Source: Minisyncoccia bacterium (GTDB taxonomy: Bacteria; Patescibacteriota; Minisyncoccia; Phycocordibacterales; JAACPR01). From it: a DNA stretch of 64,000 nucleotides. Made by a program: the position numbers and the translations under genes. The notes under the pieces are model-generated. The model was not told the origin of the DNA. It made no database searches and worked only from the letters and a program-made list of their open reading frames with translations. The stretch is from contig JBGSLH010000012.1 of assembly GCA_041740795.1 (NCBI GenBank), positions 19,146 through 83,145 on the forward strand, in the 5' to 3' direction. Of the stretch, positions 20,387 through 63,112 are shown piece by piece (the first letter of the stretch is position 1; every line of letters begins with the position of its first letter).

Positions 20387-21601
20387 TCAGTATGACAGGT
20401 TGCCCTGAGCCGTTATTTCTGGGTTAATCGTGGCCATCGTATTGAGAGACTCGATCGCACCAGCAACTGCAATCATCTGTGCGTTGTCGGTGGAATCGGA
20501 TATCTTGGGCAAAAGGAGAGGAATTTTCATTTGATGAGCAAGTTGTTCCACTTGTGTTCTAAGGTAAGTATTAGCAATGACACCACCAGATATTATGAGG
20601 GTTTTGTACTCACCTTGTTCAAATGCCTTGTTGATTTTGTACAAAATGACATCTGTGATTGCCTGTTCAAACTCGTGCGCAATGTTCATTTTAAGGGTAT
20701 CGGTAAGAGTCTCGATCTCCTTCACTTTGTAGAGTACGGAAGTTTTTAGTCCTGAAAATGAAAAGTCCAAGTCCTTGGTGTGGAGCATCGGACGAGGAAA
20801 CGTGAAGTCGCCGCTGCCGATACTTGAGTGCCGAGCGAGCGCAGCGAGCTCGGCGATCTTGGGTCCGCCAGGATATTCAAGTCCGATCATACGCGCGACT
20901 TTGTCGTACGATTCTCCGATTGCATCGTCTTTTGTTTTTCCTATAATTGTAAAGTCAGAAACGGAATTCATTTCGACAAGTTCGGTATGTCCGCCCGAGA
21001 TCAGGAATGCGAGTGTTGGGAACTTGATCTCTGTCTGGTTAAGTAGTACAGAAAATATATGCCCCTTCATATGGTTGGCTGGAACGAGCGGAATATTCCA
21101 GTACAGAGAAAGTGCGCGCGCAAAGCTGATGCCGACCCAGAGAGCTGGCTCGAGTCCTGGGCCTTGGGTAACTGTTAATAGATCAATGTCAGGCTTGGGA
21201 TACTTCAGAAGAAGCTCCTTGGTTTTTTCAAAAAGTCCGACTTCGCGTTCGAGGAGTTTTTCTATCTGAGACCACCTGTCATCCTGCACAGATTCGTCGG
21301 TAGACGAATCGTGTTGTGGGACCATGTTAGAATAATCACGAGATCCCGCATCTTCGCCTGTCTGCGACAGACTTCGTGCGGGATGACATGTTAATATTTT
21401 TTCCAACAACAAAGGTAACCACTTCGCATGTTCTCTTTTTGCAACTGCAGGGAAGACACCTCCGAATTCTTTATGGATGTCGATTTGTGAAAAGAGTTCA
21501 CTTTGAATCTCTCGCGCCGTGATACGTGTATCAGAAATCTGCACGTCTACAAGAGCGATACCTGTCTCATCACAAGATGTTTCTATTGCGAGGATTTTCA
21601 T
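20387..21601 (-). CDS. tsaD: tRNA N6-adenosine threonylcarbamoyltransferase TsaD (404 aa, with an internal insertion)
   Basis: MKILAIETSCDETGIALV, GPGLEPAL, SGGHTELV, ISGGVIAN. Confidence 0.9.
   Translation of the reverse strand: MKILAIETSCDETGIALVDVQISDTRITAREIQSELFSQIDIHKEFGGVFPAVAKREHAKWLPLLLEKILTCHPARSLSQTGEDAGSRDYSNMVPQHDSSTDESVQDDRWSQIEKLLEREVGLFEKTKELLLKYPKPDIDLLTVTQGPGLEPALWVGISFARALSLYWNIPLVPANHMKGHIFSVLLNQTEIKFPTLAFLISGGHTELVEMNSVSDFTIIGKTKDDAIGESYDKVARMIGLEYPGGPKIAELAALARHSSIGSGDFTFPRPMLHTKDLDFSFSGLKTSVLYKVKEIETLTDTLKMNIAHEFEQAITDVILYKINKAFEQGEYKTLIISGGVIANTYLRTQVEQLAHQMKIPLLLPKISDSTDNAQMIAVAGAIESLNTMATINPEITAQGNLSY
21278..21387 (-). mobile_element. Composite palindromic element inserted in frame in tsaD
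   Basis: On the + strand: GTCATCCTGCA..TGTGGGA, a loop, then CGAGATCCCGCA..TGCGGGATGAC. Translated through as HPARSLSQTGEDAGSRDYSNMVPQHDSSTDESVQDD. Homologous to 62721-62832. Confidence 0.7.
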
Positions 21602-21637: not shown

Positions 21638-22480
21638 CTAAATACAAGCACAAAAGTCAGAATTAGACGAACCATCACACAAAGGTGTTGGACTATTTAA
21701 TGGAACTGCATTGTGTTGACATAATATAGAACCTGTTGGTATTGGTCGAAAAAATCCAAAACCTATTGCTGTTTGATTAGATAAAATTCTTTGAGTAAGT
21801 ATATCAGGATTTTGAATTGAAGCGCTTCCTGTACAAAAACCAATTTCAGCAGCAATTCTACATGCATCAGAAGGGAATTCACTTGGGTTCAAAGATGTTA
21901 ATGTTGCACAATTACAATTTTCTGGCGCTTGACGGGCATTAAAACAAGAGCTTGTCTCTGTTTGTTGTCCGATAGCAGGACAACTCCAATCATGATCACA
22001 AGAACCAAAGGTATAACTTTTTGAAGGAGAGGCCGAACAATATTTTTTTGTATTATTTGCAATACTGTTATTTAACTTTACTCCAAAGACAGCATCTATT
22101 TGATCTTCTGAAACCGCATACATATATCCAGCTCCCGTTGGACTGTATGGTATTTCTGAGAGGTAGCCACCATCTACCAGCGCTTGCATAGTTGGAATGT
22201 AATCAGAGTTTGGATCATTTTCATTATGGGTAATACCTATGTTTGTACTGTCTCCACCGCCAGATGTCTTTAAGGGTGCAAAACCATTGTGGTCATTTTT
22301 ATACAATGCAATCGCACTGCTTATCTGTTGTGCGTCAGCCTTCATGCTCGCATCCCTTCCCTTTTTCTTGGCCTCAGTTATGTTAAAAAAAATTACAGAT
22401 GACAAGACTGAAATCATTCCAGTTACGAGTAAAAGTTCAATAAGTGTAAAACCCTTTTTATTTTTTGAAGATGTTTGCAT
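21638..22480 (-). CDS. Type IV pilin-like protein with a Cys-rich C-terminal domain
   Basis: Prepilin N-terminus KGFTLIELLLVTGMISVL. 12 Cys in the C-terminal half. Confidence 0.75.
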   Translation of the reverse strand: MQTSSKNKKGFTLIELLLVTGMISVLSSVIFFNITEAKKKGRDASMKADAQQISSAIALYKNDHNGFAPLKTSGGGDSTNIGITHNENDPNSDYIPTMQALVDGGYLSEIPYSPTGAGYMYAVSEDQIDAVFGVKLNNSIANNTKKYCSASPSKSYTFGSCDHDWSCPAIGQQTETSSCFNARQAPENCNCATLTSLNPSEFPSDACRIAAEIGFCTGSASIQNPDILTQRILSNQTAIGFGFFRPIPTGSILCQHNAVPLNSPTPLCDGSSNSDFCACI

Positions 22481-29416: not shown

Positions 29417-29787
29417 CGTCATTCCCGCGAAGGCGGGAATCCAGGCTTTATTTTTTCTTGAGCAAGGGATCGTATTATTAAAAACATGAAGGAAAGTTAC
29501 GTATACATACTTGCCAGCGATAGAAACGGAACTTTATATGTTGGTGTAACAAGTGATCTTGATAAAAGAATACAGGAACATAAATTAAAGATACGAAAGA
29601 GCTTTACGCAAAAATATAATGTAGATAAGTTGGTTTATTACGAGGTACATTTTGATATTCAGACCGCAATTCATAGAGAAAAGTGTATAAAGAAATGGAA
29701 TAGAAAGTGGAAGATAGATCTTGTTGAAAGTATGAATTTGCAATGGGAAGACCTGAAACCTGGATTCCCGCCTTCGCGGGAATGACG
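29417..29787 (+). mobile_element. GIY-YIG gene bracketed by exact 29-bp inverted hairpin repeats
   Basis: CGTCATTCCCGCGAAGGCGGGAATCCAGG at 29417-29445 is the exact reverse complement of 29759-29787. Each arm is itself a hairpin, ATTCCCGC-GAAG-GCGGGAAT. Confidence 0.7.
29486..29785 (+). CDS. GIY-YIG nuclease superfamily protein (YhbQ/UPF0213-like)
   Basis: YVYILASDRNGTLYVGVTSDLDKRIQEH. The C-terminal residues PGFPPSRE and the stop codon are encoded by the right repeat. Confidence 0.85.
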   Translation: MKESYVYILASDRNGTLYVGVTSDLDKRIQEHKLKIRKSFTQKYNVDKLVYYEVHFDIQTAIHREKCIKKWNRKWKIDLVESMNLQWEDLKPGFPPSRE

Positions 29788-30485: not shown

Positions 30486-30624
30486 CGTCATCCCCGCGAA
30501 GGCGGGGATCCAGTCCATAGTAGAAAAATATTATTGGGGTTGTGTAAAGACTAGTTACTACTGTTCTCTGAAAGTTACTGTTTAACGCAAGTGATCCTGG
30601 ATTCCCGCCTCCGCGGGAATGACA
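30486..30624. repeat. ORF-less inverted doublet of the hairpin repeat
   Basis: CGTCATCCCCGCGAAGGCGGGGATCCAG at 30486-30513 and CCTGGATTCCCGCCTCCGCGGGAATGACA at 30596-30624, in inverted orientation, 82 bp apart. Confidence 0.75.
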
Positions 30625-32433: not shown

Positions 32434-32973
32434 ATGAAAATTCTCGTAGGGCTCGGGAACATCGGAGAAAAATACGTAGGCACAAGACACAATGTCGGAC
32501 GCGATTTTCTTTTCTGGTTTGCACGCAAGCATGACTTTTCCGAATTCAAGAAGGATTCTTTTCTCAAGGCACTCGTATCACAAGGAGAAATCGGTAATAA
32601 AAAATATATTTTCGTACTACCTGAGACATATATGAATCTTTCAGGACAAACAGTGAAGCATATTTTTGAAAAATGGACTGACACAACAAAGGAAGAAGTG
32701 ATGATTATCCATGATGACATCGACATTAATTTTGGCGAGATCAAAGTATCCAAGGACTCTGGTCACGGAGGGCATAATGGTGTGAAATCGATCCAGCAGG
32801 AAACAAAGGAGAACTTCATACGCATAAGAATCGGCATCTGTCCTAGGACATTTCTGGGTGGATATAAAAAACCGCACAAGGAAGAGGTTGCGGATTTTGT
32901 ATTGAAGAAGTTTGGGATGTTGGAGAGGAGGGAAGTGGAGACTGTGTATAGGAAAGTGGAAGGGTTGGTATAA
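32434..32973 (+). CDS. pth: Peptidyl-tRNA hydrolase
   Basis: MKILVGLGNIGEKYVGTRHNVG. TGCTATAGT box 8 nt before the ATG. Confidence 0.9.
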   Translation: MKILVGLGNIGEKYVGTRHNVGRDFLFWFARKHDFSEFKKDSFLKALVSQGEIGNKKYIFVLPETYMNLSGQTVKHIFEKWTDTTKEEVMIIHDDIDINFGEIKVSKDSGHGGHNGVKSIQQETKENFIRIRIGICPRTFLGGYKKPHKEEVADFVLKKFGMLERREVETVYRKVEGLV

Positions 32974-32974
32974 G

Positions 32975-33007
32975 AGAAAAGGCGCGCCCGAAGGGCGCGC
33001 CTTTTCT
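32975..33007. terminator. Bidirectional terminator
   Basis: AAAAGGCGCGCCC-GAA-GGGCGCGCCTTTT, between the convergent pth and rpsA. Confidence 0.7.
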
Positions 33008-33051
33008 CTTCTGTTTATTACGAGATTCCGGAATAAATCCGGGATGACAGA

Positions 33052-45245: not shown

Positions 45246-45484
45246 ATGTAAAAGACATGATATCAGAAAATTGAGAAAAGGGAATTGGTCCGTGAAGGAA
45301 TCGGTCACGAGTCACTAAGTATAATTCTTCGCAGGCTTCGCCTACTCGAATTCTACTAAGTGCTCGCGACCCCGCCTCGCCGACCATGTTCGCTTCGCTC
45401 CACATGGTGCCCGGCTGCGGCTTTCGATTCCCGCTCGCAAAGCTTCGCTTTGCTCCAATCCAAAAACTCACTTCGTTCGTTTTG

Positions 45485-45556
45485 AGGCGTGGGCGGGAAT
45501 CGAACCCGCGCATGGAGGATTTGCAATCCACAGCGTTACCACTTCGCCACCACGCC
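45485..45556 (-). tRNA. tRNA-Cys (GCA)
   Basis: Acceptor GGCGTGG/CCACGCC, anticodon loop TTGCAAA, discriminator U. Confidence 0.8.
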
Positions 45557-53210: not shown

Positions 53211-53293
53211 GCGTAGATGGTAGAGCGGTCAATTACAAGGGACTGTAAATCCCTCGCCTTCGGGCTACGTGGGTTCGAATCCCTCTCTGCGCA
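53211..53293 (+). tRNA. tRNA-Tyr (GUA)
   Basis: Acceptor GCGTAGA/TCTGCGC, anticodon loop CTGTAAA, long variable arm, T-loop TTCGAAT (one U-U in the T stem). Confidence 0.8.
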
Positions 53294-53297
53294 CATA

Positions 53298-53340
53298 GAA
53301 AATAAGGAGAGCAAGACAATGTCTTGCTCTCCTTATTTTC
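53298..53340. terminator. 20-bp perfect hairpin after tRNA-Tyr
   Basis: GAAAATAAGGAGAGCAAGAC-AAT-GTCTTGCTCTCCTTATTTTC. Confidence 0.6.
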
Positions 53341-53413
53341 TTGCTCAGAGAGGGATTCTAAAGTCGGAGGTCCAGTCCCTGTATTTACAAAGCAAATCTG
53401 GGATGACCGAGAC

Positions 53414-62100: not shown

Positions 62101-62364
62101 TCTGGTTCGACGTGCATCCATTCGTTCCTTGTCCTTGCGAGTTCGTGCTGCGACATACGCATCGATTCCAATAATAGGCTTAATATTATTTTCAAGACAT
62201 TTTTTATAAAAATCTATCGCTCCGTATAAGTTTCCGTTATCAGTAAGTGCAAGTGCCTTTTGACCGTCAGCAACTGCTGCAGCGATCAGATCCTTTATCT
62301 TTGGAAGGGCAGTCAAAAGACTATAATGGCTGTGCACGTGCAAATGGGAAAAGGGTTTGCTCAT
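59194..62364 (-). CDS. dnaE: DNA polymerase III alpha subunit
   Basis: PHP domain FSHLHVHSHYSLL, polymerase core and OB fold. Start trimmed to MSKPF, 7 nt after TATAAT. Confidence 0.95.
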   Translation of the reverse strand: MSKPFSHLHVHSHYSLLTALPKIKDLIAAAVADGQKALALTDNGNLYGAIDFYKKCLENNIKPIIGIDAYVAARTRKDKERMDARRTRLILLVKNEVGYKNLIQIVTDSHLDGFYYKPRIDRELITKHHEGLICISPSFNSEIVNALAMSNKERALEILAYYKETFGDDFYIEITHHPEIEGHEGRMSLIKEFAKETGTKLVAASDVYYIKPEDRDARRTLMSVQSSFGGDAGVDDEENFSFISQKEANQYFKDIPEALDNIQEVIDKCNIELELGNWVFPAIDLEGRLAKDVLREKAFAGIERRKMEPTESLLKRVEYELDVIETKGYSPYFLVVGDLIRYAKEAGIQSNTRGSAAGSLVSYLVGITTVDPIEYGLPFERFLNPERPSPPDIDMDFADNRRDDMIEYARRTYGAHNVAQIGTFGKMLAKGAVRDTARAMGFDYAKGDAIAKLIPLGAQGFPMTIKRALDDTPELAELYKTDADSKVIIDMARKIEGCARHIGVHAAGVVISPTTMTDFVPVQMDPKGEGKIITQYDMHSVEEAGLLKFDFLGLKNLSIIAQTVKMADKLYGEKIDVDEIPLDNKNTFDMLARGETEATFQLNGDGMTRFLKELKPSNIHDINAMVALYRPGPLAFIPDYIERKHNPEKVVYFDAKLKPYLETTYGILIYQDDILLIAVNLAGYSWGEADKFRKAVGKKIPEEMVKQKEKFIKGCIEVGGFSEDNTHKLWDMIETFAAYGFNKAHAAAYGRVAYLTSYLKANYPVLYMASVLTADSGDVDKIATMVHECERMGITVLPPDINESFADFGVVPGERGKEIIRFGLTTIKNFGQGIADAIIKERKENGKFVDLEDFFTRVVDRNLNKKSLEALIKTGAFDSLNPDRALLLHNFENLLKFNKEIAKADADQDSLFTSSSIEISHLHLEPGPTISKQEMLGWEKELLGLYVTGNPLDQFKDLLTNGHTVEKIKAESKDGVTLVVAGIIEECKPILTKKGAPMAFLKIKDYTDSLECVCFPKVYEKYKDIIEGDGCIAVKGTISVRNGEKSILVDKIKKLE

Positions 62365-62383
62365 ATCTGATATTATACACACT
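62365..62383. promoter_or_regulatory. 19-bp divergent region with overlapping -10 boxes for dnaE and rnhB
   Basis: Plus strand TATTAT at 62371-62376 and minus strand TATAAT at 62372-62377. Each lies 7 nt from its ATG. Confidence 0.5.
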
Positions 62384-63112
62384 ATGGCAAAGGATTTAAG
62401 GTGGACAACTCAATACATCATTGGTGTAGACGAAGCAGGACGGGGCCCGCTTGCGGGCCCCGTTGCTGTCGGTGTTTCTTTTGTTCCAAAACTCTATCAA
62501 AAACAGGTATTTTCTTTTCTTAAAAAGGCAGGACTTAACGATTCTAAGCAAGTCAAAGAAGTGACTCGAGAATCACTGTATAAGACACTTGTCCAACTCA
62601 GAAAGGAACAAAAGTTAGACTGGGCAGTAACACTCGTCCCTGCAAAAATTATTTCAACCAAGGGGATTGTGTTTGCTGTTAATTTTGGAATAAAAATGGG
62701 GTTGCAGAAAGTTTTAGCACGTCATCCCGCAAGAAGTGGCTCCGTAGGAGGAACGAAAATGCGGGATCTCGCTATAAAAAATTACGAGATCCCGCAACTT
62801 CGCCGGCCTACGGCCGGCTCGTGCAGGATGACACGTAACATAGAACTCGAAATGGACGGAGCACTCAAAATTCCACCAGGAGAATGGAAAAAAGCATCAG
62901 TCATAATTAAAGGTGATTCAATTAAGCCAAGTATTATGATTGCATCTATACTTGCAAAAGTGACACGCGACAGATATATGAAAAAGATTTCAAAAATTTA
63001 TCCTCAATACTTGTTTGAAATTCACAAGGGATATGGAACCAAAAAGCATCGAGATTTGATTAAAAAATATGGAATGAACAAGGAACATCGGGTAGGGTGG
63101 TGTAAGTACTAG
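62384..63112 (+). CDS. rnhB: Ribonuclease HII (with an internal insertion)
   Basis: IIGVDEAGRGPLAGPV, KGDS, ASILAKVTRD, HKGYGT. Confidence 0.85.
   Translation: MAKDLRWTTQYIIGVDEAGRGPLAGPVAVGVSFVPKLYQKQVFSFLKKAGLNDSKQVKEVTRESLYKTLVQLRKEQKLDWAVTLVPAKIISTKGIVFAVNFGIKMGLQKVLARHPARSGSVGGTKMRDLAIKNYEIPQLRRPTAGSCRMTRNIELEMDGALKIPPGEWKKASVIIKGDSIKPSIMIASILAKVTRDRYMKKISKIYPQYLFEIHKGYGTKKHRDLIKKYGMNKEHRVGWCKY
62721..62832 (+). mobile_element. Composite palindromic element inserted in frame in rnhB
   Basis: GTCATCCCGCA..TGCGGGATCTCG, a loop, then CGAGATCCCGCA..TGCAGGATGAC. Translated as HPARSGSVGGTKMRDLAIKNYEIPQLRRPTAGSCRMT. Confidence 0.7.

What the first reader, a model, noticed from the sequence alone, without database searches (positions are those of the whole stretch)
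21278..21387. Palindromic repeat element inserted in frame inside the essential gene tsaD
A ~110-bp imperfect palindrome lies inside the TsaD ORF. Its outer arms are GTCATCCTGCA / TGCGGGATGAC and its inner arms TGTGGGA / CGAGATCCCGCA. It is translated straight through as (TC)HPARSLSQTGEDAGSRDYSNMVPQHDSSTDESVQDD. It sits between ..LPLLLEKIL and ..DLLTVTQGPGLEPAL, where TsaD proteins normally have only a short linker; this TsaD is 404 aa versus the usual ~330-340. A homologous element is inserted in rnhB 41 kb away in the same orientation and reading frame, and both insertions begin HPARS. This is the behaviour described for Rickettsia palindromic elements (selfish DNA tolerated in frame in protein genes). 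I am not aware of it being described for CPR-like genomes.
Basis: partly seen in the sequence, partly recalled or inferred. Interest (0 to 1): 0.78.

Follow-up and report, generated by a model that had tools for sequence, protein, structure and literature searches.

The report
Hairpin repeat read through inside tsaD
A selfish hairpin-forming DNA repeat, of the family that includes some Rickettsia palindromic elements and the Neisseria repeats cut by the Ssn nuclease, sits in frame inside two housekeeping genes of a candidate-phyla-radiation (CPR) bacterium, and a gene for that type of nuclease lies 8 kb away.

Summary
Window 21277..21388 is a 110-nt palindromic element, open in frame inside tsaD. 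It encodes residues C72/H73-D108, which AlphaFold2 models as a disordered loop. A 70%-identical copy (blastn E 1e-12) lies in frame in rnhB.

Each element is a pair of inverted hairpin units with the tags on the outside. A unit is an unpaired C/TGTC tag, the 8-bp stem ATCCCGCA/TGCGGGAT, then a C. This is the published CGTC-tagged REP superfamily (Di Nocera 2013), which includes Rickettsia RPE-4 and RPE-6 and Neisseria dRS3. It is also the Ssn-related motif (NTS/SRM) of Chenal 2025.

The window holds three more loci:
- a 99-aa GIY-YIG (Ssn-type) gene flanked by two inverted units that match the Neisseria NTS consensus 28/28 (29417..29787);
- an intergenic dimer (30486..30624);
- a singleton (33022..33049).

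Close tsaD orthologues carry empty, degenerate or quite different hairpin pairs at the same linker. Three genes 87-93% identical in DNA carry three different inserts. The nearest rnhB relative does the same.

This is a new member of a known family in a new phylum, not a new kind of element. How it moves is still unproven.

The parts
20387..21601 (-). tsaD (404 aa), the host gene
   Evidence: ORF. NCBIfam TIGR03723 TsaD scores 337 bits against a cut-off of 296, matched in two stretches. E. coli TsaD 4ydu aligns to residues 1-65 and 137-384.
21277..21388 (-). In-frame palindromic element: a dimer of two inverted CGTC/SRM-type hairpin units with tags outside. It encodes C72/H73..D108.
   Evidence: Inverted repeats, folds, translation. 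GC is 0.53 against 0.45 for the rest of the gene. AlphaFold2 pLDDT is below 50 for residues 77-102.
21340..21388 (-). Unit 1 of the tsaD element. Tag TGTC (21385-21388), stem ATCCCGCA (21377-21384), 26-nt loop with a nested hairpin (21351-21376), stem TGCGGGAT (21343-21350), tail CTC (21340-21342).
   Evidence: Unit scan finds a perfect 8-bp stem. The ssDNA fold keeps the stem and leaves the GTC tag unpaired.
21277..21325 (+). Unit 2 of the tsaD element, in inverted orientation. Tag TGTC (21277-21280), stem ATCCTGCA (21281-21288), loop with the nested hairpin GATTCGTC/GACGAATC, and a decayed inner arm TGTGGGAC (21315-21322, 5 of 8 positions pair).
   Evidence: Sequence, inverted repeat I5, ssDNA fold.
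62357..63112 (+). rnhB (RNase HII, 251 aa), the second host gene
   Evidence: ORF. NCBIfam RNase HII models match. RNase HII structure 7uwe aligns to residues 18-105 and 179-246.
62720..62833 (+). Second in-frame dimer of the same subfamily (R/HPARS..CRMT). Unit 1 is 62720-62770: CGTC, ATCCCGCA, 28-nt loop, TGCGGGAT, CTC. Unit 2 is inverted at 62786-62833.
   Evidence: blastn against the tsaD element gives E 1e-12. Sequence, unit scan, folds. GC is 0.56 against 0.38 for the rest of the gene.
29417..29444 (+). Canonical unit CGTCATTCCCGCGAAGGCGGGAATCCAG. It matches the Neisseria NTS consensus exactly and forms the left flank of the nuclease gene.
   Evidence: The regexes for NTS and SRM taken from PMC11893778 both match. 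The ssDNA hairpin folds.
29486..29785 (+). 99-aa single-domain GIY-YIG nuclease gene, a candidate Ssn-family site-specific ssDNA nuclease. Its stop codon lies inside the right-hand unit.
   Evidence: Pfam PF01541, E 8.7e-18. Y7, Y18 and E65 have the same spacing as the catalytic Y6, Y17 and E64 of Neisseria SsnA. More than 7000 homologues were found, and 8 of 17 aligned ones end in ..FP(P/L)(S/A)RE*, which is a read-through into a 3' unit.
29760..29787 (-). Second exact NTS-type unit, inverted. It forms the right flank of the nuclease gene.
30486..30624 (.). Intergenic dimer with short 4-nt loops: CGTCATCCCCGCGAAGGCGGGGATCCAG ... CTGGATTCCCGCCTCCGCGGGAATGACA.
   Evidence: It lies between two minus-strand ORFs.
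33022..33049 (-). Single unit TGTCATCCCGGATTTATTCCGGAATCTC, intergenic. It is of the same type as the left unit of the tsaD inserts in orthologues P0002 and P0007.

Best explanation
WHAT IT IS (shown)
- The 110-nt segment in tsaD is a non-autonomous repeat made of two inverted hairpin units.
- It belongs to the CGTC-tagged REP superfamily, also called Ssn-related motifs (NTS/SRM). That superfamily contains Rickettsia RPE-4 and RPE-6 and Neisseria dRS3/NTS.
- Each unit has an unpaired C/TGTC tag, an 8-bp stem beginning A-T then T-A, and a C straight after the stem. In this subfamily the usual 4-5-nt loop has grown to 26-28 nt holding a nested hairpin.
- It lies in a clade-specific, hypervariable, disordered linker between helix 51-72 and helix 102-117 of TsaD. 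It has no stop codon and keeps the frame.
- A sister copy lies in a loop of RNase HII, a few residues upstream of the strand carrying the LEMDG motif.

WHAT HAPPENS TO IT (inferred)
- It is most likely translated as a tolerated surface loop. Intragenic copies survive only where they land in frame in a flexible loop.

HOW IT PROBABLY WORKS (partly shown, partly inferred)
- Shown: the same window encodes a 99-aa GIY-YIG gene bracketed by two inverted canonical units. This is the NTS-ssn-NTS layout.
- Shown for the Neisseria and Wolbachia enzymes by Chenal et al. 2025: Ssn binds such hairpins only as single-stranded DNA and nicks a few nucleotides upstream of the tag.
- Inferred: nicking at hairpins exposed in single-stranded DNA, followed by templated repair or ectopic recombination with other copies, spreads, replaces, duplicates and deletes units.
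- Inferred: this would explain why the same tsaD and rnhB loops hold different units in close relatives. I favour one or a few old insertions followed by unit-by-unit replacement and deletion over many fresh insertions.
For: ANATOMY AND SIGNIFICANCE
-.

FAMILY IDENTITY
- The definition of CGTC REPs and their equation with RPE-4, RPE-6 and dRS3 come from PMC3733652.
- Real Rickettsia RPE-4 DNA shows the same termini and plan.
- The published SRM pattern hits 3 units in the window against 0.2 expected from shuffles.
- It also hits the tsaD inserts of orthologues L198, L201, L202 and L206, and two Rickettsia loci. It hits nothing in 250 kb of other tsaD loci.
- More than 116 genomic loci in many phyla, including at least 10 CPR lineages, carry GTCATCCCGCA-loop-TGCGGGATC. 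They show extra conserved positions beyond the search pattern.

NUCLEASE PARTNER
- Window 29417..29787.
- All three close homologues of the GIY-YIG gene in my data (window, L073, L019) have family termini within about 70 nt upstream and immediately downstream.
- Biochemistry from PMC11893778.

INSERTION IN A TOLERANT LOOP
- AlphaFold2, alignments to solved structures, and higher GC than the host gene.

TURNOVER AT THE SAME SITE
- The alignment and tree of 34 TsaD sequences show a patchy distribution.
- Linker DNA of 10 orthologues.
- P0006, P0007 and P0008 genes are 87-93% identical in nucleotides yet carry three different inserts.
- The window and P0002 share the right half, with compensatory stem changes, but not the left half.
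- The right unit in L202's tsaD differs by 1 nt from an intergenic copy 8.7 kb away in the same genome.
- The rnhB orthologue P0247 has a different short-loop dimer at the same site.
Against: - No mobility event is observed, and no target-site duplication is evident at either intragenic copy.
- A GIY-YIG hydrolase alone is not a transposase.
- According to Chenal et al., only the tag-5' strand of a unit is cut, and changing the stem sequence abolishes activity. The window's nuclease is flanked by ATTCCCGC stems, so it may not act on the ATCCCGCA long-loop units in tsaD and rnhB.
- The window units in tsaD and rnhB fail the published SRM pattern because of their long loops.
- RPE peptide models do not match them.
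- Assignment of the 99-aa protein to CDD family cd10448 could not be checked.
- Translation of the insert is inferred only from the intact frame.
- In 16 hits from other CPR lineages none was clearly intragenic, so in-frame copies are the exception.
Confidence: 0.75

Rival explanations
1. Recurrent fresh insertions. The tsaD and rnhB loops are hot spots hit independently, many times, by different members of the repeat family, with old copies lost by deletion.
For: - Sister sequences have an element-free linker (P0005 next to the window protein, P0009 next to P0013).
- The distance from the conserved EKIL motif to the tag varies from 0 to 3 codons, and the spacers differ.
- Three different inserts sit in genes that are 87-93% identical.
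Against: - In every orthologue I inspected that keeps a left terminus, it is read in the same frame (HP.. or HS..). A unit is open in 5 of 6 frames, so frames are not forced.
- The window and P0002 elements are mosaics that share only their right half.
- No target duplication is seen.
- Palindromes are prone to deletion, so element-free linkers can be secondary.
Confidence: 0.3
2. The intragenic hairpins are kept because they do something. For example, they could mark tsaD and rnhB for Ssn cutting of incoming single-stranded DNA, as NTS-gene-NTS does in Neisseria transformation. Or they could act as an mRNA structure that tunes translation.
For: - In N. meningitidis, NTS repeats modulate natural transformation through SsnA.
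- Hairpin symmetry is maintained in most orthologues even though the sequence changes.
- The predicted folds are strong, about -50 to -60 kcal/mol on the coding strand and -70 on the opposite strand of the rnhB copy.
Against: - Many close orthologues lack the element or carry decayed remnants.
- Unit 2 of the window tsaD copy has a decayed inner arm.
- The peptide is not conserved.
- Perfect stems can also be maintained without selection, by templated correction within palindromes. That point rests on established knowledge of quasipalindrome mutagenesis and was not tested here.
Confidence: 0.1
3. It is an ordinary lineage-specific protein insertion (a functional TsaD loop) whose DNA only happens to look palindromic.
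For: The clade does have a genuine extra helix next to it, and its TsaD is 375-400 aa.
Against: - The peptide is not conserved, and the segment is absent from sister sequences.
- The DNA palindrome beats all 200 shuffles.
- A homologous copy lies in an unrelated gene, and canonical family units lie in intergenic DNA of the same window.
- AlphaFold2 models it as disordered.
Confidence: 0.03
4. The segment is removed before the protein functions, as an intron, an intein, or by programmed bypass.
For: The only support is the strong secondary structure.
Against: - There is no Rfam match, including to intron or ribozyme families.
- At 37 aa it is far too short for an intein, and intein motifs are absent.
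- All occupied orthologues keep the frame open and free of stops. Removal before translation would not require this.
Confidence: 0.03

Closest known systems
CGTC-tagged REPs (Di Nocera, De Gregorio & Rocco 2013, BMC Genomics 14:522; families CGTC-1 to CGTC-4)
   Same: - Unpaired CGTC or TGTC tag.
- 8-bp stem with A-T then T-A as its first two pairs.
- Units paired as dimers with the tags outside, with a short spacer (about 14-15 nt in the tsaD and rnhB copies, about 84 nt in the 30486 dimer).
- Intergenic and occasional intragenic copies.
- Found across several phyla, including Micavibrio, Rickettsia, Coxiella and Bacteroidetes.
- The window's 29417, 29760, 30486 and 30598 units also have the 4-nt loop and the CCA tail.
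   Different: - The tsaD and rnhB units have 25-28-nt loops with a nested hairpin, and a CTC tail.
- The host is a CPR (Parcubacteria/Paceibacteria-like) bacterium, a group not covered in that survey.
- That paper found no dedicated enzyme. Here a GIY-YIG gene is bracketed by two units.
Ssn nuclease with NTS/SRM repeats (Chenal et al. 2025, Nat Commun 16:2388)
   Same: - The units at 29417 and 29760 equal the Neisseria NTS consensus CGTCATTCCCGCGMAVGCGGGAATCYRG at all 28 positions.
- They bracket a roughly 100-aa single-domain GIY-YIG gene, the NTS-ssnA-NTS layout.
- The GTC before the stem and the C after it, which that paper found critical for cleavage and binding, are kept in the tsaD and rnhB units.
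   Different: - That work describes intergenic repeats around genes and a role in transformation. Its text does not mention intragenic in-frame copies, RPEs, CGTC REPs or CPR bacteria.
- The tsaD and rnhB units fall outside its search pattern because their loops exceed 5 nt.
- Activity of the window enzyme is untested.
Rickettsia palindromic elements RPE-4 and RPE-6 (Ogata et al. 2000, 2002; NCBIfam TIGR03777 for RPE4)
   Same: - Palindromic repeats tolerated in frame in housekeeping genes.
- RPE-4 DNA fetched here has the same termini (TGTCATCCCG..CGGGATCC / GGATCCCG..GGATGACA) and the same two-hairpin plan.
   Different: - Different stem interiors and loop lengths.
- A different entry frame: HP.. 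here, SSR.. in the RPE4 domain.
- The RPE protein models do not match.
- Different phylum.
REPINs and RAYT transposases (GTAG-tagged REPs)
   Same: - Inverted doublets of short hairpins that can fold as one long hairpin.
- A single-copy gene for a nuclease that acts on single-stranded hairpins, flanked by the repeats.
   Different: - The tag is CGTC/TGTC, not GTAG.
- The flanked gene is a GIY-YIG hydrolase, not a Y1/HUH transposase.
- REPINs are essentially extragenic.

Membership tests
CGTC-tagged REP superfamily | Unpaired terminal tag CGTC (variants TGTC, CCTC) at one end of the hairpin | tested here: met
   tsaD has TGTC on both units. rnhB has CGTC and TGTC. The units at 29417 and 29760 have CGTC, and the 30486 dimer has CGTC and TGTC. 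The tag stays unpaired in ssDNA folds.
CGTC-tagged REP superfamily | Stem of 8-9 bp whose first two pairs are A-T and T-A | tested here: met
   ATCCCGCA/TGCGGGAT is perfect in tsaD unit 1 and rnhB unit 1. rnhB unit 2 pairs at 7 of 8 positions and tsaD unit 2 at 5 of 8. ATTCCCGC/GCGGGAAT and ATCCCCGC/GCGGGGAT are perfect in the intergenic units.
CGTC-tagged REP superfamily | Loop of 4-5 nt and a 3-nt tail close to CCA | tested here: not met
   Not met by the element under review: the tsaD and rnhB units have 25-28-nt loops with a nested hairpin and a CTC tail. The feature is met by the units at 29417, 29760, 30486 and 30598 (GAAG or GGAG loop, CCA tail). The 2013 paper notes loop-length exceptions in some families.
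CGTC-tagged REP superfamily | Mostly arranged as dimers with the tags outside (HH), usually with 20-100 nt spacers | tested here: met
   tsaD, rnhB and 30486..30624 are all tags-outside dimers. Their spacers are about 14, 15 and 84 nt. The pair 29417/29760 is the same arrangement around a gene.
Ssn-related motif (SRM/NTS) | Match to the published pattern HGTCWYN(0-2)YYVSBRHN(0-5)WNVSBRGN(0-2)RNCYNB | tested here: not met
   The tsaD and rnhB units of the window do not match, solely because the pattern allows loops of 5 nt at most. Three other window units match, against 0.2 expected from shuffles. The tsaD inserts of four orthologues also match.
Ssn-related motif (SRM/NTS) | GTC just upstream of the palindrome and C just downstream (the determinants of cleavage and binding) | tested here: met
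   Present in all four units of the two intragenic elements..GTC-ATCC..GGAT-C... Their importance is taken from PMC11893778.
Ssn-related motif (SRM/NTS) | An Ssn (GIY-YIG) gene flanked by the motif in the same genome | tested here: met
   Window 29417..29787 holds NTS, a 99-aa GIY-YIG ORF and an inverted NTS.
Ssn-related motif (SRM/NTS) | Bound and cut as single-stranded DNA by the cognate Ssn | not testable with these tools
   This needs purified protein and oligonucleotides.
Ssn nuclease family (cd10448), for ORF 29486..29785 | Single-domain GIY-YIG protein of about 100 aa with catalytic Tyr, Tyr and Glu | tested here: met
   PF01541 matches residues 4-77, E 8.7e-18. Y7, Y18 and E65 are invariant in 17 homologues and have the same spacing as SsnA Y6, Y17 and E64.
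Ssn nuclease family (cd10448), for ORF 29486..29785 | Assignment to CDD cd10448, or E < 1e-10 against N. meningitidis SsnA | not testable with these tools
   Neither CDD nor the SsnA sequence was available. The match to the UPF0213 structure 1zg2 is weak (E 0.0024), so the ORF is not a close UPF0213 member.
Rickettsia palindromic elements (RPE) | Match to the RPE peptide-domain models (NCBIfam/TIGRFAM RPE models, e.g. TIGR03777 for RPE4) | tested here: not met
   No RPE model matches TsaD, RnhB, six orthologue inserts or translations of the elements in other frames. As a positive control, an RPE4-like peptide scores 51.6 bits against a cut-off of 23.95.
Rickettsia palindromic elements (RPE) | DNA architecture of RPE-4: tag, hairpin, spacer, inverted hairpin, tag | tested here: met
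   Compared with real RPE-4 DNA at L204:2013-2095 and L205:1490-1572.
MITE (transposase-derived miniature element) | Terminal inverted repeats plus a target-site duplication and a related full-length insertion sequence | tested here: inconclusive
   Inverted termini are present. No direct repeat flanks either intragenic copy. No transposase-bearing relative was seen, but only 64 kb of this genome was available.
REPIN/RAYT system | GTAG tag and an associated Y1 (RAYT) transposase | tested here: not met
   The tag is CGTC/TGTC. The repeat-flanked gene is GIY-YIG, not Y1. I did not make a full search of the window for a Y1 gene.
Intein or self-splicing intron | Intein splicing motifs and size, or a ribozyme fold | tested here: not met
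   The insert is 37 aa. There is no Rfam match at E up to 10 other than three chance-level hits.

The most novel reading that the evidence does not exclude
In these small CPR genomes, Ssn-type nicking of hairpins followed by templated repair continually rewrites the same disordered loops of essential proteins (TsaD, RNase HII). It would swap, duplicate and delete hairpin units. This would be the first comparative evidence that CGTC/SRM repeats, and by extension Rickettsia RPE-4 and RPE-6, are currently mobile. It would identify the GIY-YIG Ssn nuclease as their long-missing dedicated enzyme, and show that the system drives variation in protein linkers.
Probability: 0.3. Interest if true: 0.65.

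Novelty: new member of a known kind. Interest (0 to 1): 0.45.

Why it matters
THREE LITERATURES DESCRIBE ONE THING
- Rickettsia RPEs are known as selfish DNA inside proteins (2000-2002).
- CGTC-tagged REPs were described as having "no dedicated transposase" (2013).
- The Ssn single-strand nuclease and its NTS/SRM hairpins were described in 2025.
- This window shows all three aspects side by side. A canonical nuclease cassette, intergenic units and in-frame copies in two housekeeping genes lie within 42 kb, in a phylum where I found none of this reported.

OPEN QUESTIONS IT MAKES TESTABLE
- The patchy, fast-changing occupancy of one linker among close tsaD orthologues is a natural experiment on whether and how these repeats move.
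- That question is open, as is the biological role of Ssn outside Neisseria.

PRACTICAL POINT
- Such inserts inflate protein lengths and create junk peptides (HP..RDD, VIPAKAGIQ, RLRGND types). They can mislead annotation and alignment of CPR proteins.

Tried and rejected
- Rfam gave nothing relevant for the element (E-value mode) or for 18 related loci (gathering mode).
- Full-text search for the sequence GTCATCCCGCA returned only unrelated primer hits. Search for hallmark peptides returned nothing.
- The plasmid collection gave no match for the element. An RPE4-like query gave only chance-level Rhizobium hits.
- The Genome Research 2002 RPE paper (PMC186582) is not held.
- The Coxiella QMITE2 element may be related, since it has cross-phylum hits in alphaproteobacteria. 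No sequence was available in the text or supplements to check this.
- A metagenome scan for tsaD relatives returned few close ones. I fetched orthologue DNA one protein at a time instead.
- Testing pairing at fixed offsets inside the loop showed no in-register covariation. The position just inside the stem is a conserved C/A mismatch. Even so, the modules fold better than loop-shuffled controls in 90 of 121 cases.
- A generic AT[CT]C[CT] hairpin scan of the window was not better than shuffles: 8 hits against a mean of 4.3 and a maximum of 9. Two of its hits turned out to be tRNA T-arms.
- A profile search for more Ssn genes in the 116 pattern loci found only L073, L019 and one distant GIY-YIG in L099 with no adjacent tag. 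Most repeat loci therefore lie far from the nuclease gene.
- I considered a Y1/RAYT partner and dropped it as the lead once the repeat-flanked GIY-YIG gene was found. I did not screen all window ORFs for transposases.
Full report
**1. The observation**

tsaD is the minus-strand ORF 20387..21601, 404 aa. Window 21274..21391 contains a 16-nt inverted repeat, ACCTGTCATCCTGCAC / GTGCGGGATGACATGT, which is 88% complementary. It also contains a second pairing between the GATCCCGCA region (21332-21350) and the right terminus, and a perfect 8-bp inner hairpin.

The coding strand reads ..ACA TGT CAT CCC GCA CGA.. to ..CAG GAT GAC AGG.. without a stop. This gives TCHPARSLSQTGEDAGSRDYSNMVPQHDSSTDESVQDDR. 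As RNA the segment folds at -51.5 kcal/mol against -34.0 +/- 3.9 for shuffles (z = -4.5). The rnhB copy reaches z = -6.6 and -9.6 on its two strands.

The rnhB ORF is 62357..63112, and its element lies at 62720..62833. blastn of the tsaD element against the whole window finds only the rnhB copy, at 69-70% identity over 117-138 nt. The E-values are 1.4e-12 and 2.7e-11, one for each orientation.

An independent Logan assembly encodes the identical TsaD.

**2. Anatomy**

Each element is two inverted hairpin units with their tags on the outside.

- In tsaD, read on the coding strand, unit 1 is TGTC, ATCCCGCA, a 26-nt loop with its own hairpin, TGCGGGAT, then CTC.
- A roughly 14-nt spacer follows.
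- Unit 2 is the mirror image, and its inner arm has decayed to 5 of 8 pairs.
- rnhB has the same plan: CGTC, ATCCCGCA, a 28-nt loop, TGCGGGAT, CTC, a spacer, then GAG, ATCCCGCA, a 25-nt loop, TGCAGGAT, GACA.

The cores are 110 and 112 nt long. Both are entered in the HP.. frame, but they are left in different frames..QDD in tsaD and ..RMT in rnhB. GC content is 0.53 and 0.56, against 0.45 and 0.38 for the rest of the two genes.

**3. Where it sits in the proteins**

AlphaFold2 was run with a 34-sequence alignment and gave mean pLDDT 86.7. Residues 77-102 score below 50, between helix 51-72 and helix 102-117.

E. coli TsaD (4ydu) aligns to residues 1-65 and 137-384. Seventy-one residues therefore replace 11. 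Only 37 of those come from the element. The remainder is a helix shared by all Parcubacteria/Paceibacteria TsaD, which are normally 375-400 aa.

In RNase HII the insert lies between residues 105 and 179, facing residues 84-118 of structure 7uwe. It is a few residues upstream of the LEMDG strand.

**4. Orthologues**

In an alignment of 34 TsaD sequences the linker after LPILLEKIL is hypervariable.

- It is short and holds no element in P0005, P0009, P0018/19, P0029, P0033, L118 and L120.
- It carries 'CHP...RDD'-type peptides in P0002, P0003, P0004, P0007, P0011, P0012, P0014 and P0017. Related 'HS..' peptides occur in P0008, P0013 and P0023, and P0050 has a more divergent one.

The DNA shows that each occupied linker is its own palindromic dimer, with the same termini but different stems and loops:

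- CCCGGATTTATTCCGGG in P0002 and P0007;
- CCCGCACTTGGTGCGGG in P0011;
- CCCCGTGTAAACGGGAA in P0014;
- a single short hairpin in P0003.

On a neighbour-joining tree built without the linker, occupancy is patchy. The window protein's sister P0005 has no element.

The tsaD genes of P0006, P0007 and P0008 are 87-93% identical in nucleotides outside the linker. They carry three different inserts, two with perfect stems and one a remnant.

The window and P0002 share a homologous right half in which two stem pairs have changed on both sides. Their left halves differ.

In L202 the right unit inside tsaD (CTGGATCCTCGCCTCCGCGAGGATGAC) differs by one base from an intergenic unit 8.7 kb away in the same genome.

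rnhB behaves the same way. Most relatives are 200-215 aa with a short loop. The closest representative, P0247 (66% identity), has a different short-loop dimer at the same site: CGTCATCCCTGCGAAGGCAGGGATCCAGG..AGATTCCCGCCTTCGCGGGAATGACG.

It is not met.

**5. What family it is**

My estimate of the chance expectation is about 25 for the whole collection, assuming equal base frequencies.

The hits span Alpha- and Gammaproteobacteria, Bacteroidota, Chloroflexi, Melainabacteria, Bdellovibrionota and at least ten CPR lineages. Positions outside the search pattern are conserved: C follows GCA and A precedes TGCGGG in 89 of 121 distinct cases. Fifty-eight of 130 hits also have the mirror terminus within about 230 nt.

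From memory I linked the termini to Rickettsia peptides, and I tested that link as follows.

- A peptide, SSRGLTTGSS..LDPVVKPRDD, scores 51.6 bits on NCBIfam TIGR03777 'RPE4' against a cut-off of 23.95.
- The search recovered real Rickettsia RPE4 proteins.
- Their DNA reads TGTCATCCCGTGGCTTGACCACGGGATCCA..CTGGATCCCGTGGTCAAGCCACAGGATGACA. This is the same plan and the same termini as the window element.

The window's own peptides do not match any RPE model, because their frame and stems differ.

The literature then supplied the formal family. Di Nocera et al. 2013 define CGTC-tagged REPs by:

- an unpaired CGTC, TGTC or CCTC tag;
- an 8-9-bp stem starting A-T then T-A;
- a 4-5-nt loop and a CCA tail;
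- mostly tags-outside dimers.

They found them in five phyla, sometimes intragenic. They equate CGTC-4 with RPE-4, CGTC-1 with RPE-6, and CGTC-1 with Neisseria dRS3. They note that no dedicated transposase is known.

**6. More copies and a partner gene in the window**

A scan for tag-plus-stem units found 12 hits, against a mean of 4.2 and a maximum of 11 in shuffles. Five loci are convincing:

- the two intragenic dimers in tsaD and rnhB;
- an intergenic short-loop dimer at 30486..30624;
- a singleton at 33022..33049, of the type seen in the tsaD inserts of P0002 and P0007;
- two perfect units at 29417 (+) and 29760 (-), which bracket a 99-aa ORF at 29486..29785.

That ORF is a single-domain GIY-YIG protein (PF01541, E 8.7e-18). 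Its stop codon lies inside the right-hand unit.

Chenal et al. 2025 showed several things about this type of system:

- Small GIY-YIG proteins of this type (Ssn, CDD cd10448) are site-specific nucleases for single-stranded DNA.
- They bind the hairpin repeat NTS, CGTCATTCCCGCGMAVGCGGGAATCYRG, and cut a few nucleotides upstream of it.
- The GTC is needed for cutting, and the C after the stem is needed for binding.
- The genes are typically arranged NTS-ssnA-NTS.
- Rickettsia, Wolbachia and Neisseria carry more than 300 such motifs.

Both units that bracket the window ORF match the Neisseria NTS consensus at all 28 positions. The published degenerate SRM pattern hits 3 window units, against 0.2 in shuffles. 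It also hits the tsaD inserts of four orthologues and two Rickettsia loci, and nothing in 250 kb of unrelated tsaD loci.

The ORF has more than 7000 homologues, 60-70% identical across phyla. Y7, Y18 and E65 are invariant and have the same spacing as SsnA Y6, Y17 and E64. Eight of 17 aligned homologues end in ..FP(P/L)(S/A)RE*, which is the signature of a 3' unit overlapping the stop codon.

The two other close homologues in my loci (L073, L019) are also flanked on both sides by family termini.

The Ssn paper's text does not mention RPEs, CGTC REPs, intragenic copies or CPR bacteria.

**7. Mechanism, and how sure each step is**

*Shown here:*
- family identity;
- in-frame, stop-free placement in a predicted disordered loop;
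- a nuclease cassette 8 kb from tsaD;
- rapid change of the insert among close orthologues.

*Taken from the literature:* Ssn nicks single-stranded DNA next to the hairpin.

*Inferred:*
- The intragenic copies are translated and tolerated.
- Nicking followed by templated repair or ectopic recombination accounts for spread, for unit swapping, and for the tag-proximal duplications listed under 'noticed in passing'.
- The tsaD site was colonised once or a few times and has been rewritten since.

*Against the Ssn link:*
- Recognition is sequence-specific, and the window enzyme's own units have a different stem from the tsaD and rnhB units.
- Only one strand of a unit is cut.
- A hydrolase is not a transposase.
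- No target duplication is seen.

**8. Verdict**

The element is not a new kind of thing. It is a long-loop variant of a published cross-phylum repeat superfamily with a published partner nuclease, now seen in a CPR genome and inside two housekeeping genes.

The parts that go beyond what I found published are:
- the CPR host;
- the nested-hairpin loops;
- the explicit bridge between RPEs, CGTC REPs and Ssn motifs;
- the turnover at a single protein linker.

Interest is 0.45. Novelty is 'new member of a known kind'.

Noticed in passing
window 29417..29787: A complete NTS-ssn-NTS cassette. Two inverted units identical to the Neisseria meningitidis NTS consensus (28/28) bracket a 99-aa GIY-YIG gene whose stop codon lies in the right unit. 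The identity of a 28-nt motif between a CPR bacterium and Neisseria, and the 60-70% protein identity across phyla, suggest horizontal spread.
   Followed up: yes
L202:10215..10440 (tsaD of orthologue P0014): Directly after the right terminus of the insert there are about five in-frame tandem copies of a 21-nt unit, GAGGATGACGTAGTTGGGAGT (EDDVVGS). The unit starts with the terminus itself. This is the region where an Ssn-type nick would be expected on the opposite strand.
   Followed up: partly
L208:1330..1440 (rnhB of P0247); L203 (tsaD of P0011): These show duplications of host flank plus tag. In P0247, TTAGCATGTGATCCACAG.. is followed 13 nt later by TTAGCACGTCATCCCTGC... In P0011, GTGCGGGATGAC is followed 9 nt later by GTGCGGAATGAC. 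They look like footprints of repeated cutting and repair, or of slippage at the tag.
   Followed up: no
L003, L007, L011, L013, L017, L024, L031, L043, L044, L054, L069, L080, L082, L083: In Coxiellaceae, Bacteroides, Balneolaceae, Chloroflexi, Endomicrobiaceae, Defluviitaleaceae and Pseudovibrio, the left half-unit is directly duplicated: GTCATCCCGCAC, 8-10 nt, then GTCATCCCGCAC-TTGA-TGCGGGATCC. L083 (Pseudovibrio) holds an array of six such modules spaced about 240-320 nt apart.
   Followed up: no
L119:729..1925 (tsaD relative): The same linker carries family units read in another frame (WIPAYAGMT .. MDSYLHKND). The HP.. entry frame is therefore common at this site but not universal.
   Followed up: partly
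window 45400..45556 and 53211..53360: Downstream of tRNA-Cys (45484..45556, minus strand) and tRNA-Tyr (53211..53294, plus strand) lie sequences complementary to the T-arm or 3' end of the tRNA (CGATTCCCGC.., ..CAGAGAGGGATTC). They form long hairpins that include a terminator-like stem. Their meaning is unknown.
   Followed up: no
window 21638..22480 (minus strand): The gene next to tsaD encodes a 280-aa protein with a type IV pilin-like N-terminus (KKGFTLIELLLV..) and a cysteine-rich C-terminal part.
   Followed up: no
window 32981..33001: A perfect GC-rich hairpin, GGCGCGCCCGAAGGGCGCGCC, followed by a T-rich run lies just after the 32434..32973 ORF, which I take from its sequence to be peptidyl-tRNA hydrolase-like (not tested). 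It lies 20 nt before the singleton repeat unit. It is probably an intrinsic terminator.
   Followed up: no
P0262, P0259, P0260, P0272 (RNase HII relatives, alignment A4): Other RNase HII proteins carry unrelated long inserts at the same loop, for example SPHFAKATRGKQ in P0262. The loop seems to accept insertions of several kinds.
   Followed up: no
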